64,000 nt of DNA from TPA_inf: Saccharomyces (taxonomy: Eukaryota). Shown piece by piece: positions 35,251 through 50,319 of the stretch. The stretch lies in the NCBI GenBank assembly GCA_000146045.2, contig BK006948.2, positions 320,001-384,000 on the forward strand, in the 5' to 3' direction. Within the stretch, counting starts at the first letter, position 1, and each line of letters starts with the position of its first letter. Position numbers and translations under genes: made by a program. Below the pieces are notes generated by a model. It had not been told where the DNA came from. It made no database searches and was given only the letters and a program-made list of their open reading frames with translations.

Positions 35251-36542
35251 TGATGTCCTGTTCATAAAAATAGAGCCCTAAGAAGTGTTATTAAATTTAA
35301 CCAGCCTACAAATTAAATATAAAATGAGTGTTATTGTTCCACCGACTTGAATAATTGTACAACTTTAGCTAACATTTTAACTAATATTTTAACGCATCTT
35401 ATTATCAAGTATTGTAACAATACGTATCATCTTACTATCTCAATGGAAGCATTCTCTTATACATACTGAGTCAAATATCTTGAAGACTCATTATAATGTG
35501 TAATAAAAGGACAAAGCAGCGTAGAAGCCTTAAATAACTATGCACTTGGACACATGTCTTCTCACGACGTGTTCAAATATAATGATTTTTCAATCAGCTT
35601 TGAAGTTCAATACAAACTTCTTCACTAAAGGATAATAAGCAATCATTATTAATGGCAAAATCGGTTTTCAATTTCTTTCATTTTGAAATATTGGAGTATT
35701 TAAACCGTTTTGTGTATCATTCACAATACTTTCTTCCATACTACTGCTCTCTTGAAGTTCTTGGGAAGAGCCGAAAAAATTGGACATTTCAATATTGGTG
35801 CTTATACATTACTACTGACAAGAAGATAATAAAAAAGAAAGATTTCTATCACCGATAGTGAGCTCTTTAGAAAACTGAACGCAATAAATTTTATGCCTCA
35901 TAACGTCTTGGGGCGCGAGAATTTACTGACGTAAACAGATCCGGCTCAAAAAGTCGTCTTTACCTTTCTATCATCTCGTCGCATAATTATTAAATTAACT
36001 CACAATTTCTCACAATTTATATCATGCCTTTTTTGTCAGTTCGTGGCCTTGCCAGTGGAGATATAACAACTACTTCGTAAAGGGTCCCGAAAGAAATGAA
36101 AGAATTACTCATTTGATATAAAAATTTGCATGGTATAACAGAAGTGAAACGCGGGGACAACCATGATCTTTTTTGAGTAGGATAATTTTTTATGTCGGTT
36201 TGATATATTATAAAGCAAGTCATATATAATATCATACTGATTTTAACCAAACGATAATCAATCAGAAAAAGAAAATAAATAAAAAATCTAGCACATAGTA
36301 TTTCAGTACCCTTATGGTTCTGACCTCAGAAATTATTCAGCCGCTTGTTATCTTATAGTACGTTTTATATCGTAATTTTCCTGACATTTTGGGCAGAAAT
36401 CCTTTACTCCTGATATAATAAACGACGTTTTTTTTCCTGTGTTTTTTATGTTACTATAAGAAATGCAAAAAAAGAAACAATAGAAAAAGGCAGTGACAAA
36501 AATACTAATCAGAACGTTGAAAACAAATCAATAGTTTTGATA

Positions 36543-36956
36543 ATGGTAGCATCATCGATCAATGAAGAATCCTCTTTGGCGGTAAACTTGACAAGCGATG
36601 TAGAGAAGGCTTCGAAAACTTTGTTTAAGGCATTCGAAAAGTCATACGCAAATGACTACTTGATGAAAAAGTTCTTCCATATCCCAATCACTGAAAAAGT
36701 TTCAAGGGCAAGAATAAATGCAATGATACATTACTACACGACGTGCTACCATGACTTGGATGGTGAAATTGCTGAGGCAAATGATTTCGATGCAGTCGCA
36801 ATATGGAGCCGCCCTGGGTGCCACTTGCCTGCTACACTATCTGACGACGAGTCTTTCAATAAGATTTTTTTTTCACGACTTGACTGTGAGGAAGCACGAA
36901 GTCATGCCTCTGGGAATGGACTATTACTACCTTTATGCCATCGGAAAAGATCCTAG
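36543..36956 (+). CDS. YOR012W, uncharacterised 137-aa ORF; appears to be the N-terminal half of a longer gene (see pseudogene entry)
   Basis: The track ORF 36537..36956 begins at TTG; the first ATG is at 36543 (MVASSINEESS...), giving 137 aa. Confidence 0.6.
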   Translation: MVASSINEESSLAVNLTSDVEKASKTLFKAFEKSYANDYLMKKFFHIPITEKVSRARINAMIHYYTTCYHDLDGEIAEANDFDAVAIWSRPGCHLPATLSDDESFNKIFFSRLDCEEARSHASGNGLLLPLCHRKRS

Positions 36957-37221
36957 CCATCCCGAAATTAGAGGTTCAGTCAGAAAAATACTCGAAAAAT
37001 ATAAAACCAAAGCAGACAAGGCCAATTGCGCCCTTGCTCTCGAGGCTATTTCGGAGCACGCAAGATCTGTGTACGAATATTTCGGTTTCAAAACCTATTT
37101 GGTGTTTCAGTTCGGGGTTGGAGAAGTGAACTCCAAAGGAGAACCCGATCCGCAGGGGAAGGGATTCACGGCCTACTTGATGCTCTACCACAAAGATGCA
37201 GACACCATCTTTCACGCCTGA
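36751..37221 (+). pseudogene. 156-aa ORF (I believe annotated YOR013W/IRC11, a 'dubious' ORF) in the +1 frame overlapping the YOR012W 3' end; likely the frameshifted C-terminal half of the same ancestral gene (YDR391C-like)
   Basis: ORF1 (frame 0) and ORF2 (frame +1) overlap over 36751-36956 and both cross a T9-10 homopolymer at about 36865-36874. Downstream of the T-run, ORF2 encodes well-structured sequence (HDLTVRKHEVMPLGMDYYYLYAIGKDPSHPEIRG...). Upstream of it, ORF2 is low-complexity garbage (MTWMVKLLRQMISMQSQYG...). Confidence 0.5.
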
Positions 37222-37673
37222 TTTTCTTCTAAAAATTTTATAGACATTTATTGTATGTATGGAGCATATAGCAACAATAAAACTTAGACCAACATTTTTT
37301 GCCGGGTCACAACCCCCTATCCCGGCTGCGAGAAAGGAAAAAAAAAAGTATCAGACAATTGATTATCAAAGAGTATGTGAAACTACGCTTTGTTTTCCAC
37401 TTCAATTGGTAGGCATGTCAATACGTCTCGTTTCTTCATTGGAAAACTCTTCATTTCAAGGATAAACCATCGTCGCCGTAAGTATTTTGGGTTTCATTTC
37501 CTTCCCCCCTCGATTTTGCTTTTTTTTCCTTTTTTTGTTAGATAAAAATATAAACCCTTCTCCATATACCTGTTCACCTCAATACCGTCTTTAACTGGCT
37601 TTTTTATTTTGTATAAAAGTTCTACTTATTAAGATCAATAGGCACGTGCTATTTTCGAACATCCACTTTCAAT

Positions 37674-39947
37674 ATGATGCGTGGTTTCAAGCAAAGATTA
37701 ATAAAGAAGACCACCGGGTCTTCTTCTTCTTCAAGCAGTAAAAAGAAGGACAAAGAGAAGGAAAAAGAAAAAAGTTCCACTACCTCATCCACATCAAAGA
37801 AGCCCGCTTCGGCTAGTAGCTCTTCCCACGGGACTACTCACAGTTCTGCCAGCAGTACCGGATCAAAGTCTACAACTGAGAAGGGCAAGCAATCTGGTAG
37901 TGTTCCCTCGCAAGGGAAGCATCATAGTAGCTCTACATCAAAAACAAAAACAGCGACGACCCCTTCTTCCAGCAGCAGTAGCAGTAGAAGTTCAAGTGTC
38001 AGTCGCTCCGGTTCAAGCTCCACAAAGAAAACAAGTTCAAGAAAAGGACAAGAACAGTCCAAACAATCGCAACAGCCATCACAATCTCAAAAGCAAGGAT
38101 CTTCTTCATCATCTGCCGCTATAATGAACCCCACTCCAGTACTCACTGTTACTAAGGACGACAAAAGCACTTCTGGTGAAGATCATGCACATCCTACTTT
38201 GCTGGGGGCAGTATCCGCTGTTCCATCATCTCCCATTTCAAATGCTTCAGGTACAGCAGTTTCTTCTGATGTAGAAAATGGTAATAGTAATAATAACAAT
38301 ATGAATATTAATACTAGTAATACTCAGGATGCAAACCACGCCTCCTCACAAAGTATCGACATTCCGAGATCATCACACTCATTTGAGAGACTACCAACAC
38401 CCACAAAACTTAACCCTGACACAGATTTAGAGTTAATTAAGACTCCCCAACGTCATTCTTCATCTAGATTCGAGCCATCTAGATATACGCCATTAACGAA
38501 ATTGCCAAATTTTAATGAAGTTTCTCCTGAAGAAAGAATCCCTTTGTTCATTGCCAAAGTTGACCAGTGTAACACTATGTTTGACTTTAATGATCCAAGT
38601 TTTGACATTCAAGGTAAAGAGATTAAAAGAAGCACCTTAGATGAGCTAATAGAATTCCTTGTAACAAATAGGTTCACTTACACGAATGAGATGTACGCTC
38701 ATGTGGTGAACATGTTCAAAATCAATCTGTTTAGACCTATTCCACCACCAGTAAATCCAGTTGGTGACATTTATGACCCAGATGAAGATGAACCTGTTAA
38801 CGAACTAGCCTGGCCTCATATGCAAGCTGTTTACGAATTCTTTTTAAGGTTTGTGGAAAGTCCTGATTTCAATCATCAGATTGCTAAACAATATATTGAT
38901 CAGGACTTTATTTTAAAGTTACTGGAATTATTTGATAGCGAAGATATCAGAGAAAGAGACTGTTTGAAAACGACACTGCATAGAATATATGGGAAGTTCT
39001 TATCATTAAGAAGCTTTATTCGTCGGTCGATGAATAATATTTTTTTGCAATTTATTTATGAGACTGAGAAGTTTAACGGTGTGGCAGAATTGTTAGAAAT
39101 TTTGGGTTCCATAATTAATGGATTTGCACTTCCATTAAAGGAAGAGCACAAGGTTTTCTTGGTGAGGATATTGATACCATTACACAAGGTCCGTTGTTTA
39201 TCATTATACCACCCTCAGTTGGCTTACTGTATCGTTCAATTTCTCGAAAAAGATCCTTTATTAACCGAAGAGGTAGTTATGGGCTTACTGCGTTATTGGC
39301 CAAAAATAAATTCCACAAAAGAGATAATGTTTCTAAATGAAATCGAGGATATTTTTGAAGTGATCGAACCGCTGGAATTTATTAAAGTAGAAGTTCCGTT
39401 ATTTGTTCAATTAGCTAAGTGTATTTCTTCTCCACATTTCCAAGTGGCGGAAAAGGTTTTAAGTTATTGGAATAATGAATATTTCTTAAACTTATGTATC
39501 GAAAATGCCGAAGTCATCCTACCCATTATATTTCCTGCATTATATGAATTAACTTCTCAGTTAGAGCTAGATACAGCAAATGGCGAAGATAGCATTTCAG
39601 ACCCTTACATGCTTGTTGAGCAAGCAATCAATTCTGGTTCGTGGAATAGGGCAATTCATGCTATGGCATTCAAGGCATTGAAAATTTTTCTGGAAACAAA
39701 CCCAGTATTGTACGAAAACTGTAATGCATTGTACTTATCAAGTGTAAAAGAAACTCAACAGCGTAAGGTGCAACGTGAAGAAAATTGGAGCAAACTTGAA
39801 GAATATGTAAAAAATCTAAGGATTAACAATGATAAGGACCAATACACAATCAAAAACCCAGAATTAAGAAACAGTTTCAACACAGCAAGTGAGAATAACA
39901 CATTAAATGAAGAGAACGAAAATGATTGTGACAGCGAGATACAGTGA
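37674..39947 (+). CDS. RTS1: PP2A B' (B56) regulatory subunit, Ser-rich N-terminus, 757 aa
   Basis: ATG at 37674. The B56 conserved core (...[37 protein letters not shown]...) preceded by about 230 aa of poly-Ser/Thr low complexity. 757 aa. Confidence 0.9.
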
Positions 39948-48126: not shown

Positions 48127-50319
48127 ATGATTTCTGTTTGCCCACAAAATGACTTGCAAAAATGCTACAGAAGCCTCACATTCGATGTTCCAGGACAACA
48201 ATTCGAAGAGAGAAATGAACAAAACCTTAAAAAACGGGCCAAAAAGAAAGGCAGTTTCCAACCATCTGTTGCCTTTGACACAGTGCCTTCCACCGCTGGT
48301 TATTCTTCTATAGACGACAGCAGGGAAGGATTCAAAGGTGTACCTGTTCCCAACTATTACACGATGGAAGAGTGCTATGACGATGAAACAGACTCTTTTT
48401 CGCCAAATTTGCAATATTATTTGAGAGATACATTCCAATCATCACCTTTTCTGAATACTAGAAAAGAGAACAAATCTGAATCCAGTAGTTTTCCAATGAG
48501 ATCCTCAAAGTTGTTGGAAAAGAATTCTGACATCAAAAAATATTTCTTGGTATCCAAGAATGGAAAAATAGTGAGGAGAGACTATCCAAGCACGCCAGTA
48601 ATTGTCAACGAAACGTTGATGATAAACAGGTTTGAAAAGAACTGGATAAAGTTATGGCGCCAAAGAAAACTACAAATAAATGAAAGGCTGAATGACAAAA
48701 AAAAATGGTTTACTTACCCAGAACTTATCTTCTCTGAAGAGCGTATTAAACCGTTATATAGAGGAGATGATAGTGCACCATGTACAAAAGAACAAAAAAG
48801 AAAGCATAAAATACTTCAACAAAAGGTCGGATATCCCAATAACCCTAAGACAATAGTTTGTCACATTAACGGAAAAAAACATACGTGGGTTGCCCTAGAC
48901 TGGACAGTCTACAAGTTTGCACGAAATCTTGATCACATTGTTGTCATAACTACACTGCCAAAAATGATTTCTAACAGGAAAAAAACTGCAAAAGATGATA
49001 CAGAATGGGCACCGGGATATCAAAAAGAAGTAATAGATCAAAAATTAAACGACATTTTTGATTATATTTTACAGCTAGTAAAAGTGGTCAAAATATCCGT
49101 CAAAATTACTTTAGAAATAATTGTAGGCAAAATTAAAAAAAGTCTGGTAGATGTCATTAATGTCCATACTCCAGATTTCTTAGTTCTTGCTACTTTAAAG
49201 CACGAGCGAAATGAGAATCTTATTACATATAAATCCAAAAAGCTGACAGATGTCTTTCCTGTTAGTTATCCGATTCCCACATTTGTTGTTCCCTCGAAAC
49301 GAATGTATTCGTTCGAACTGAATCTACAAAGAGAAGTAAATGAACATTATGTCTCAAAAAATCATATGAAGCACGAACACACTGACGTTGAGAGCATGAG
49401 CAGTTCAATGTTCAAAAAAAATACAATATCAGATATTTCTTCACATATTTCCGTAGATTCGTACGCCGAAGATTTCAAAAGGCAAGGCTACATCAAAAAG
49501 CAGTTCAACACCTCTAATGATTCCATTCCAAGAAAATTGACCGGTCTCGCCCAGCATTCAAGAAGGAAGATCACGGGTGATATAGAAAAATTACAAGACG
49601 ATGAGAAAGATAGAGAATGTACTAAGGAAAAACTTTTGTTGAAGAAAATTGATATCATAATTAGAGAGTCATTGAAGTCTTCTTTAGCGATAGAGACGTT
49701 GCCTGGTAAAAATGTATCGCAGTCCAGTCACGGTGACCAAATTTCCAGCTTTAAGAATGCTTTGATAGGCAATGGGTCGAAAAACACAAAGTTTAGAAAA
49801 TCTTTAATACCATATTCTTCCTCAGAGGAACAAAATACCACAACAACTATTAAACTCAGTAGCTCGCCTACGTCCCAAATCAAGTTTGCAACCTCTGTAA
49901 AACACAAAGATGGAAGAGCCGCCCTTGGCAAAGCCAGAAATCTGCCTGATATAAGGCACAGTATTTCCTTCGACAAAGAAAATTCCTTTGATCCATCTGA
50001 TAAAAGCAGTAGTGTTGATAATAGCATTCCTTTGAGGAAAGTTAAAAGTGCCGGTGCGTTAAGAAAAGTCAAAACTAATGACTCCTCAAGTAGTGCAGGG
50101 TCAAAGAAAAGCTCGTCTAGTTTTAGTACTGTGAACACCTTCACTGGGGGTGGAGTTGGGATTTTTAAGGTGTTTAAAAGTGGAAGTTCCTCTGGAAATA
50201 AATCATCCAGTAGAAGGAATAGTAGCAGTGGCGATGTTTTTGAAAGTGATGATCGTAACGACAAGAAAAAGAAGAAGAAAAAAAAGAAGAAATCATTGTT
50301 CTTATTCGGCAAAATATGA
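48127..50319 (+). CDS. YOR019W, uncharacterised 730-aa protein with a Ser-rich C-terminal region ending in a poly-Lys tract
   Basis: ATG at 48127. The long ORF has yeast-like codon usage; the systematic name is recalled from the chr XV gene order. Confidence 0.7.
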   Translation: MISVCPQNDLQKCYRSLTFDVPGQQFEERNEQNLKKRAKKKGSFQPSVAFDTVPSTAGYSSIDDSREGFKGVPVPNYYTMEECYDDETDSFSPNLQYYLRDTFQSSPFLNTRKENKSESSSFPMRSSKLLEKNSDIKKYFLVSKNGKIVRRDYPSTPVIVNETLMINRFEKNWIKLWRQRKLQINERLNDKKKWFTYPELIFSEERIKPLYRGDDSAPCTKEQKRKHKILQQKVGYPNNPKTIVCHINGKKHTWVALDWTVYKFARNLDHIVVITTLPKMISNRKKTAKDDTEWAPGYQKEVIDQKLNDIFDYILQLVKVVKISVKITLEIIVGKIKKSLVDVINVHTPDFLVLATLKHERNENLITYKSKKLTDVFPVSYPIPTFVVPSKRMYSFELNLQREVNEHYVSKNHMKHEHTDVESMSSSMFKKNTISDISSHISVDSYAEDFKRQGYIKKQFNTSNDSIPRKLTGLAQHSRRKITGDIEKLQDDEKDRECTKEKLLLKKIDIIIRESLKSSLAIETLPGKNVSQSSHGDQISSFKNALIGNGSKNTKFRKSLIPYSSSEEQNTTTTIKLSSSPTSQIKFATSVKHKDGRAALGKARNLPDIRHSISFDKENSFDPSDKSSSVDNSIPLRKVKSAGALRKVKTNDSSSSAGSKKSSSSFSTVNTFTGGGVGIFKVFKSGSSSGNKSSSRRNSSSGDVFESDDRNDKKKKKKKKKKSLFLFGKI

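What the first reader, a model, noticed from the sequence alone, without database searches (positions are those of the whole stretch)
36543..37221. YOR012W and the overlapping +1-frame ORF look like one gene split by a homopolymer frameshift
Two ORFs in frames 0 and +1 overlap for about 200 bp, and both cross a T9-10 run at about 36865-36874. Upstream of the T-run only frame 0 encodes plausible protein; downstream only frame +1 does (HDLTVRKHEVMPLGMDYYYLYAIGKDPSHPEIRGSVRKILEKYK...). Joining them at the T-run gives a protein of about 225-232 aa, which fits the length of the YOR012W paralogue YDR391C (recalled as 232 aa). The reference therefore probably carries a +1 insertion (T8 to T9) relative to the intact allele. 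I believe S288C annotates the second half separately as the 'dubious' ORF YOR013W/IRC11. Both the printed T count and the ORF-track frames should be rechecked: I count 10 T in the text, but the track frames imply 9.
Basis: partly seen in the sequence, partly recalled or inferred. Interest (0 to 1): 0.6.

Follow-up and report, generated by a model that had tools for sequence, protein, structure and literature searches.

The report
Acetyltransferase gene split by one extra T
The two overlapping yeast reading frames YOR012W and IRC11/YOR013W are the two halves of one acetyltransferase gene, a sister of the melatonin-pathway gene IAT4, broken in the laboratory reference strain by one extra T in a run of Ts; most other strains carry the intact gene, so this is an ordinary strain-specific frameshift and not a new mechanism.

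Summary
The run is 9 T (36865-36873), not 10. A frame-0 ORF (36543-36956, 137 aa, YOR012W) and a +1-frame ORF (36751-37221, 156 aa, IRC11) overlap by 206 bp across it.

Removing one T gives a 225-aa protein identical to a protein annotated in hundreds of S. cerevisiae contigs. It is 84-88% identical to the uninterrupted S. eubayanus and S. kudriavzevii orthologues. It aligns colinearly with YDR391C/Iat4 (49% identity, no gap at the junction).

Both halves are under strong purifying selection in the joined frame (dN/dS 0.03-0.10). The AlphaFold model (pLDDT 94.6) is a GNAT acetyltransferase. The shift falls before strand β4, so the 137-aa product lacks the part of the fold that binds acetyl-CoA in GNAT enzymes.

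The run is polymorphic in the species: T8 is intact and the commonest, T9 gives 137 aa, T7 gives 112 aa and T10 gives 113 aa. T9 lies on at least three haplotypes, and none of these alleles carries a second lesion. These are recent, probably recurrent slippage mutations.

Programmed frameshifting is very unlikely. This is a new example of a known kind, of low to moderate interest.

The parts
36543..36864 (+). N-terminal part of the single GNAT gene, frame 0: codons 1-107 plus the first base (A) of codon 108 (ATT). Codons 108-110 (ATT TTT TTT, 36864-36872) run into the T-run. In the model this part holds β1, α1, α2, a further helix, β2, β3 and the start of helix 103-120.
   Evidence: It matches YDR391C and the orthologues only in this frame. 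dN/dS is 0.06-0.10.
36865..36873 (+). T9 homopolymer: the lesion. The intact allele has T8, so one T here is an insertion. In the repaired gene the run encodes part of Ile108-Phe109-Phe110.
   Evidence: length. T8 in 21 fetched loci, T9 in 8, T7 in 7, T10 in 3; five more T9 loci and one more T8. S. kudriavzevii and S. eubayanus have TTC in the middle and therefore no run.
36874..37221 (+). C-terminal half of the same gene, frame +1: codons 111-225 plus the stop at 37219-37221. In the model it holds the rest of helix 103-120, β4, the RGSVR loop, α3, β5, α4, β6 and β7, which is the part that binds acetyl-CoA in GNAT enzymes.
   Evidence: 18 of the 24 invariant family columns lie here. dN/dS is 0.03-0.08.
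36543..36956 (+). The annotated YOR012W ORF of the T9 allele (137 aa): 110 genuine residues plus a 27-residue out-of-frame tail (SRLDCEEARSHASGNGLLLPLCHRKRS, 36873-36953) and a premature stop.
   Evidence: P0069 is named YOR012W. The tail has no real match to YDR391C.
36751..37221 (+). The annotated IRC11/YOR013W ORF (156 aa): 38 out-of-frame residues that overlap YOR012W, then residues 108-225 of the real protein.
   Evidence: P0023 is named Irc11. Homology to YDR391C starts at its residue 40.

Best explanation
Window 36543-37221 is one protein-coding gene of 225 codons. It encodes a GNAT-fold N-acetyltransferase and is the paralogue of YDR391C/IAT4. In this window, which is the S288C-type allele, it is inactivated by a 1-bp insertion (T8 to T9) in a coding homopolymer.

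Shown: the ancestral state is in frame. The S. cerevisiae lineage turned Ile-Phe-Phe (ATT TTC TTT) into ATT TTT TTT through a synonymous C-to-T change, which created an 8-T run.

Inferred from established knowledge of mononucleotide runs: replication slippage in this run then produced length variants.

Shown: T9, T7 and T10 frameshift alleles all exist in the species on different haplotypes, and none carries a second lesion. They are therefore recent, and T9 is probably recurrent.

Shown: in the T9 allele translation leaves the true frame after residue 110 and stops 27 codons later.

Inferred: the 137-aa product lacks β4-α3-β5-α4-β6-β7, the part of the fold that binds acetyl-CoA in GNAT enzymes, and cannot be an active acetyltransferase. 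'IRC11' is simply the still-open C-terminal half read from a fortuitous upstream ATG.

Inferred, not tested: the intact protein acetylates small amines as Iat4 does, and a small fraction of full-length protein may still arise from the T9 allele through transcriptional or ribosomal slippage on the run.
For: The run length and the two frames are read directly.

The repaired protein is identical to P0054. That protein is seen on 425 contigs and in 654 index blocks, and includes AWRI1631 and the S. cerevisiae part of VIN7. The D81N variant P0055 (Kyokai 7) is seen on 235 contigs and in 330 blocks. The 137-aa P0069 is seen on 55 contigs and in 83 blocks.

The DNA of 50 fetched loci shows T8 wherever the ORF is intact. 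T9, T7 and T10 occur exactly where the 137-, 112- and 113-aa products are called.

S. eubayanus and S. kudriavzevii have uninterrupted 225-codon ORFs without the run.

The alignment to S. cerevisiae YDR391C is colinear, whereas each fragment alone matches only its own side of the run.

dN/dS is 0.03-0.10 in both halves in the joined frame.

With the run set to T8, every T7, T9 and T10 allele except one low-quality draft gives a complete ORF with 0-5 nucleotide differences.

T9 lies on the S288C-type, wine-type (L028) and D81N (L045-L048) haplotypes.

The AlphaFold model has pLDDT 94.6. Foldseek returns GNAT enzymes, led by puromycin N-acetyltransferase at E 4.6e-10, with arylalkylamine and polyamine N-acetyltransferases further down. 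A profile search gives the same top hit.

Purified Iat4 (YDR391C) has been shown to be an indolamine N-acetyltransferase (PMC12063518).
Against: Nothing here contradicts the single-gene reading. The following qualify the claim of inactivation.

A yor012w/yor013w double deletion lowered fitness in CEN.PK (PMC2895221), but the CEN.PK T-run length is unknown to me.

A 2-DE/MALDI study lists an 'Irc11p' spot in BY4741 (PMC6723583). I consider this identification weak, because the methods text cites a rat database.

Allele counts come from a redundant, non-random collection, so the frequencies are rough. Some long-read or 454 assemblies carry obvious indel errors (L022 and L050). However, T7, T9 and T10 are each also seen in short-read Logan contigs.

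Pfam gives no hit, so the GNAT assignment rests on the paralogue and on the predicted fold.
Confidence: 0.93

Rival explanations
1. Programmed recoding. The T9 allele is expressed as the full-length protein by evolved +1 (or -2) ribosomal frameshifting, or by RNA polymerase slippage on the U/T run, so the split is regulatory and not a lesion.
For: UUU UUU U allows tRNA-Phe to re-pair perfectly in the +1 frame, and a slowly decoded CGA codon lies two codons downstream (sequence). Long A/T runs are known slippage sites, and low-level 'compensatory' frameshifting at homopolymer indels is documented elsewhere (PMC5009743). The T9 alleles carry no second lesion. There is one weak report of an Irc11p spot in BY4741.
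Against: The shift site is not conserved. Most S. cerevisiae alleles and both sister species have an uninterrupted ORF, and the sister species have no run at all. T7 and T10 alleles, which would need a different shift, also segregate. None of the known yeast +1 heptamers (CUU_AGG_C, CUU_AGU_U, GCG_AGU_U, GCG_UGA_C) occurs in the frame-0 ORF. The lack of second lesions is equally well explained by recency.
Confidence: 0.03
2. Two separate genes. In T9 strains YOR012W (137 aa) and IRC11 (156 aa, or a 105-aa product starting at Met121) are independently functional, possibly reassembling as a split GNAT.
For: Deletion phenotypes have been reported for the locus: the IRC11 name itself, with increased Rad52 foci (from my own knowledge), and the CEN.PK fitness loss. 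Gene callers predict a 105-aa C-terminal ORF in T7, T9 and T10 loci.
Against: The out-of-frame parts of both ORFs have no homologues. Selection acts on the joined frame in both halves. The break lies inside a helix of a single compact domain. The deletions also sit about 450 bp upstream of the RTS1 start at 37674, so a neighbouring-gene effect could explain the phenotypes; this last point is inference.
Confidence: 0.03
3. Sequencing or assembly artefact. The extra T is a homopolymer miscall in this window.
For: Homopolymers are classic error sites. Some assemblies fetched here clearly contain indel errors (L022 and L050).
Against: T9 is present in several independent assemblies that are 100% identical to the window over 3.6 kb, including short-read Logan contigs (L023, L026, L027). 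It is also present in unrelated haplotypes from short-read data (L028, L029, L047, L048).
Confidence: 0.01

Closest known systems
YDR391C / IAT4 (S. cerevisiae indolamine N-acetyltransferase; PMC12063518)
   Same: A homologue with a colinear alignment: 49% identity over about 210 residues. The length is similar (232 vs 225 aa) and the predicted fold is the same GNAT fold. Family-invariant residues are shared. By my own recollection, not tested here, the two are whole-genome-duplication paralogues.
   Different: IAT4 is intact in S288C and its activity has been measured. The gene in the window is frameshifted in S288C and no activity has been measured for any allele. The IAT4 paper does not mention YOR012W.
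Strain-specific split or frameshifted ORFs of the S288C reference (adjacent ORFs that form one gene in other strains or species)
   Same: There is a 1-bp indel in a coding homopolymer. The two resulting ORFs are annotated separately. Other strains and sister species have an intact single ORF, and there are no further lesions.
   Different: At least three different frameshift lengths (T7, T9, T10) segregate at the same run, and T9 lies on several haplotypes. I found no explicit description of this case in the searchable literature. Wood et al. 2001 (PMC2447204) is indexed for both ORF names, but its body could not be read.
Programmed +1 frameshift genes of yeast (Ty1, ABP140, EST3, OAZ1)
   Same: Two overlapping ORFs in frames 0 and +1 that together encode one protein.
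   Different: There is no conserved shift heptamer, no conservation of the split among orthologues or among most strains, and the 'shift site' itself varies in length.
Bacterial phase-variable (contingency) genes with coding homopolymers
   Same: On/off alleles are generated by length changes of a coding mononucleotide run.
   Different: The run is young: it is absent in S. kudriavzevii and S. eubayanus. The in-frame length predominates, and no evidence for rapid reversible switching or for selection on the run was obtained.

Membership tests
Iat4/YDR391C family of fungal GNAT N-acetyltransferases | Full-length, colinear sequence homology to YDR391C | tested here: met
   BLASTP of the repaired protein against S. 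cerevisiae YDR391C (P0088): 49% identity, residues 13-223 against 23-230, E 1e-73, no gap at the junction. In the family alignment of 43 sequences, the repaired protein carries all 24 invariant residues.
Iat4/YDR391C family of fungal GNAT N-acetyltransferases | GNAT fold (β1-α1-α2-β2-β3-β4-α3-β5-α4-β6-β7) | tested here: met
   AlphaFold2 model with pLDDT 94.6 and pTM 0.88, with this order of elements plus extra helices. The top Foldseek PDB hits are all GNAT enzymes: 7k09 at E 4.6e-10, and 171 hits at E <= 0.001.
Iat4/YDR391C family of fungal GNAT N-acetyltransferases | Canonical acetyl-CoA motif A (Q/R-x-x-G-x-G/A) between β4 and α3 | tested here: inconclusive
   The loop at that position reads E-I-R-G-S-V-R-K (141-148). 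G144 is invariant and S145 and R147 are nearly invariant. It does not fit the canonical spacing exactly. Pfam acetyltransferase models give no hit.
Iat4/YDR391C family of fungal GNAT N-acetyltransferases | Acetyl-CoA-dependent N-acetylation of indolamines or other amines | not testable with these tools
   Measured only for Iat4 (PMC12063518). No assay of any YOR012W allele was found.
Strain-specific frameshift (pseudogene) allele at a coding homopolymer | Conspecific and sister-species alleles are uninterrupted, and differ at the break only by the run length | tested here: met
   T8 alleles L006 and L011 differ from the window ORF by one synonymous SNP plus one T. The S. kudriavzevii and S. 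eubayanus ORFs have 225 codons.
Strain-specific frameshift (pseudogene) allele at a coding homopolymer | The indel is real, not an assembly error | tested here: met
   Independent long-read and short-read assemblies share T9.
Programmed +1 ribosomal frameshift genes of yeast | The shift site and the two-ORF arrangement are conserved among orthologues | tested here: not met
   Orthologues and most S. cerevisiae alleles are single ORFs. The run is absent in the sister species.
Programmed +1 ribosomal frameshift genes of yeast | A known shift heptamer (CUU_AGG_C, CUU_AGU_U, GCG_AGU_U, GCG_UGA_C) at the frame junction | tested here: not met
   None occurs in 36543-36956. The heptamers are taken from PMC5009743.
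Programmed +1 ribosomal frameshift genes of yeast | A trans-frame protein is made at a substantial level | not testable with these tools
   No ribosome-profiling or peptide data were available. The only hint is a weak 2-DE spot assignment.
Phase-variable contingency locus | Frequent reversible switching within lineages and long-term maintenance of the repeat | tested here: inconclusive
   Several run lengths on several haplotypes fit recurrent mutation. However, the run is not conserved beyond S. cerevisiae, and switching rates were not measurable.

The most novel reading that the evidence does not exclude
The T-run may act as a recurrent on/off switch for a second indolamine/arylamine N-acetyltransferase in S. 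cerevisiae. Loss-of-function lengths (T7, T9, T10) would arise repeatedly and be favoured in some domesticated or laboratory lineages. In line with this, knocking out YOR012W improved stress tolerance in an industrial strain (PMC8783499). The T9 allele might also stay slightly leaky through slippage. If so, S288C-based work on melatonin and N-acetylserotonin synthesis is being done in a natural mutant of the IAT4 paralogue, and wine, sake and wild strains have two such enzymes.
Probability: 0.12. Interest if true: 0.5.

Novelty: new member of a known kind. Interest (0 to 1): 0.3.

Why it matters
Three practical consequences follow.

1. Annotation. IRC11/YOR013W and the 137-aa YOR012W should be read as one disrupted gene. 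Phenotypes attributed to either ORF need re-interpretation in the light of strain genotype and of the RTS1 gene about 450 bp downstream. These include Rad52 foci, anaerobic fitness in CEN.PK and stress tolerance in KF-7.

2. Function. The only close paralogue of the newly characterised indolamine N-acetyltransferase Iat4 is broken in the S288C/BY background used to study it, but is intact in most other strains. This could make a second enzyme for N-acetylserotonin and melatonin formation directly testable.

3. Population genetics. Three independent frameshift lengths at one young coding homopolymer make a neat small example of how a synonymous change (TTC to TTT) creates a mutational hotspot.

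None of this is mechanistically new.

Tried and rejected
- Pfam scan of the repaired protein and of both fragments: no hit even at E <= 1. The family was assigned through homologues and the predicted fold instead.
- Wood et al. 2001 (PMC2447204) is indexed for both ORF names, but only the abstract and references are held and there are no supplements. I could not establish whether the frameshift was already noted there.
- A literature search combining S288C, frameshift, homopolymer, natural isolates and loss-of-function returned nothing.
- I looked for the anaerobic-response AR1 motif (TCGTTYAG) upstream of the gene, to explain its anaerobic induction. There is none in 36000-36543, and the six window-wide matches are not above chance.
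- The first MAFFT run on the haplotypes timed out. It was repeated with fast settings.
- I considered and rejected a sequencing artefact, programmed +1 frameshifting and two independent genes (see the rival explanations).
- I could not determine the S. paradoxus or S. mikatae state, or the T-run length in CEN.PK, KF-7 or E-158. No tool maps assembly accessions to strains, and those orthologues did not appear as separate clusters.

Full report
**What is in the sequence**

The region 36300-37500 was read directly and the ORFs were listed. A script shows a single long homopolymer in the region, 9 T at 36865-36873.

The frame-0 ORF from ATG 36543 ends at 36956 (137 aa). A +1-frame ORF runs from 36751 to 37221 (156 aa). 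They overlap by 206 bp and both cross the run.

The 137-aa product is identical to the protein that NCBI calls YOR012W of S. cerevisiae S288C. [quoted passage not shown] The next ORF, 37674-39947 (757 aa), carries the B56 phosphatase-subunit domain in the related loci. From my own knowledge this is RTS1.

Deleting one T gives a 678-nt ORF of 225 aa.

**One gene or two**

A search of the 5.8-billion-protein collection with the repaired protein returned several kinds of hit:
- 225-aa proteins from S. cerevisiae itself.
- The S. eubayanus (225 aa, 84% identity) and S. kudriavzevii (88%) orthologues.
- About 45 more relatives from other budding-yeast genera. Many are annotated 'N-acetyltransferase domain-containing' or 'Iat4p'.

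A second search retrieved S. cerevisiae YDR391C itself (P0088, 232 aa). BLASTP of the repaired protein against it is colinear from residue 13 to 223 (49% identity, E 1e-73). There is no gap where the frames are joined: FNKIFFHDLTVRKHEVMP aligns with FNKDFIDDLNARVKQVIP.

YOR012W alone matches only up to about residue 110. IRC11 alone matches only from its residue 40, exactly at 'FFHDL'. The 27-residue tail of YOR012W and the 38-residue head of IRC11 are therefore out-of-frame translation.

**Other strains and species**

Cluster look-ups and contig look-ups fetched 50 loci.

- P0054, a 225-aa protein identical to the repaired window protein, is recorded on 425 contigs and in 654 index blocks. 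These include AWRI1631 and the S. cerevisiae half of VIN7.
- The D81N variant P0055 (Kyokai 7) is on 235 contigs and in 330 blocks.
- The 137-aa S288C form is on 55 contigs and in 83 blocks.

Measuring the run in the DNA gave these results:

| Run length | Loci | Product |
|---|---|---|
| T8 | L001-L011, L035-L044, L050 (every locus with an intact ORF) | 225 aa |
| T9 | L022-L029, L045-L049 | 137 aa |
| T7 | L012-L018, including Lalvin QA23 | 112 aa, ending ...IFFTT* |
| T10 | L019-L021 | 113 aa, ending ...IFFFTT* |

Each frameshift length is also seen in short-read Logan assemblies. They are therefore not merely long-read or 454 homopolymer errors, although such errors do exist in some assemblies (L022 and L050).

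S. kudriavzevii reads ATA TTC TTT GAC and S. eubayanus reads ATT TTC TTT GAC. The in-frame state is therefore ancestral. The T8 run was created in the S. cerevisiae lineage by a synonymous TTC-to-TTT change.

**Age and recurrence of the lesions**

With the run set to T8, every T7, T9 and T10 allele gives a complete 225-codon ORF. The one exception is a low-quality draft. These ORFs differ from the window by 0-5 nucleotides and by at most one residue. The T8 alleles L006 and L011 differ from the window ORF by one synonymous SNP plus the one T. The frameshifts are therefore recent.

SNP haplotypes over 2.8 kb, together with the extra loci, give this picture:
- T7 lies on one haplotype, next to a T8 haplotype (L005).
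- T10 lies on one clade.
- T9 lies on at least three backgrounds: the S288C type, a wine-type core (L028), and the D81N type (L045-L048).

A single origin of T9 would need very short conversion tracts around the run. Independent slippage events are the simpler reading. Mononucleotide runs are known mutational hotspots and are selected against in yeast coding DNA (PMC1378130). The window matches L023, L026 and L027 at 100% over 3.6 kb, which excludes a reference error.

**Selection**

Nei-Gojobori dN/dS values between S. cerevisiae (repaired), S. kudriavzevii and S. eubayanus are 0.06-0.10 for codons 1-110 and 0.03-0.08 for codons 111-225. Both halves have been kept as one reading frame. Within S. 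cerevisiae almost all ORF SNPs are synonymous.

**What the gene encodes**

Pfam gives no hit. A profile of 43 family members weakly hits puromycin N-acetyltransferase (E 0.0065).

An AlphaFold2 model built on that alignment is confident (pLDDT 94.6, pTM 0.88). It has the GNAT order of elements. Foldseek against the PDB returns only GNAT enzymes at the top. Puromycin N-acetyltransferase leads at E 4.6e-10, and insect arylalkylamine and polyamine/agmatine N-acetyltransferases follow.

The paralogue YDR391C was named IAT4 in 2025, and the purified protein was shown to acetylate serotonin, tryptamine and 5-methoxytryptamine (PMC12063518). That paper does not mention YOR012W, and it used BY4743, which is S288C-derived.

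The frame break after residue 110 lies inside helix 103-120. It is upstream of β4 (127-135), the conserved RGSVR loop (143-147), α3, β5, α4, β6 and β7. Of the 24 invariant family columns, 18 lie downstream of the break. I infer that the 137-aa product cannot bind acetyl-CoA or catalyse acetyl transfer.

**Rivals**

*Programmed +1 frameshifting.* This is contradicted on three counts:
- The split is not conserved.
- The length polymorphism includes T7 and T10, which would need a different shift.
- None of the known yeast +1 heptamers is present.

Low-level, unprogrammed restoration by transcriptional or ribosomal slippage on U9 is plausible from general knowledge (PMC5009743) but was not tested.

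*Two independent genes.* This is contradicted by the lack of homology in the out-of-frame parts and by selection on the joined frame.

*Reported phenotypes.* These were obtained without knowledge of the allele state. They are reduced fitness of a yor012w/yor013w deletion in CEN.PK (PMC2895221), improved stress tolerance of a YOR012W knockout in the industrial strain KF-7 (PMC8783499), and the IRC name. In S288C-type strains they may reflect effects on RTS1, about 450 bp downstream; this is inference. A 2-DE/MALDI table lists Irc11p in BY4741 (PMC6723583), but I consider that identification weak.

**Novelty and verdict**

This is an ordinary kind of feature: a strain-polymorphic frameshift at a coding homopolymer that makes a reference annotation show two ORFs for one gene.

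The intact 225-aa protein has long been present in databases under names such as 'YOR012W-like protein'. I found no explicit description of the split in the searchable literature. Wood et al. 2001 is indexed for both names but could not be read.

What this check adds:
- The exact lesion (T8 to T9).
- The multi-allelic T7-T10 series and the recurrence of T9.
- The structural consequence for the truncated product.
- The link to the newly characterised IAT4.

Interest is low to moderate (0.3). Confidence in the single-gene frameshift explanation is 0.93.

Noticed in passing
L050 2501-5678 (assembly GCA_030035935.1, strain code CIC); equivalent to window 37017 and 37107: This T8 allele carries a compensating -1/+1 indel pair, which puts about 30 codons out of frame (protein P0003). 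In the same locus the neighbouring B56/RTS1 gene is called in two pieces (600 + 112 aa). Both look like indel errors of a long-read assembly rather than biology, which is a caution for allele counts drawn from such assemblies.
   Followed up: partly
window 36480-36545; protein P0060 (strain code HN1) and S. kudriavzevii P0002: The frame upstream of ATG 36543 stays open. One S. cerevisiae strain is annotated with a 246-aa product that starts 21 codons upstream. It begins MEKGS where the window reads ATA GAA AAA..., so ATA has presumably become ATG there. The S. kudriavzevii protein is annotated with a 44-residue N-terminal extension. The true start codon has not been verified experimentally.
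   Followed up: no
proteins P0073, P0072, P0063: Further aberrant products of this gene exist in single assemblies. One is a 136-aa 'LOW QUALITY PROTEIN' whose sequence implies a T6 run. Two others have frameshifts elsewhere in the C-terminal half. They may be additional rare loss-of-function alleles or assembly errors.
   Followed up: no
window about 35652-35858 (+); e.g. L002 1610-1816: A 68-aa ORF about 700 bp upstream of the gene is called in most S. cerevisiae assemblies, with no Pfam hit. Another 68-aa ORF lies at 37259-37465, between this gene and the B56/RTS1 ORF. Neither was examined.
   Followed up: no
window 48697 (A9), 49414 and 50278 (A8), all in the ORF 48127-50319 (+): One long ORF in the window contains three coding A-runs of 8-9 bases. 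The A9 is the only other coding homopolymer of 9 or more in ORFs of at least 150 aa in the window. It is a possible second site of strain-level frameshift polymorphism.
   Followed up: no
L044 3632-5678 (RTS1 homologue): The B56/RTS1 product is called as 741 aa in one strain, against 757 aa elsewhere. This may be length variation in its serine-rich N-terminal region.
   Followed up: no
PMC6723583, protein table: A 2-DE/MALDI study of BY4741 lists 'Irc11p' (17.98 kDa) among identified spots. If genuine, the C-terminal half is translated in an S288C-background strain. However, the paper's database description is inconsistent: it cites a rat IPI database.
   Followed up: partly
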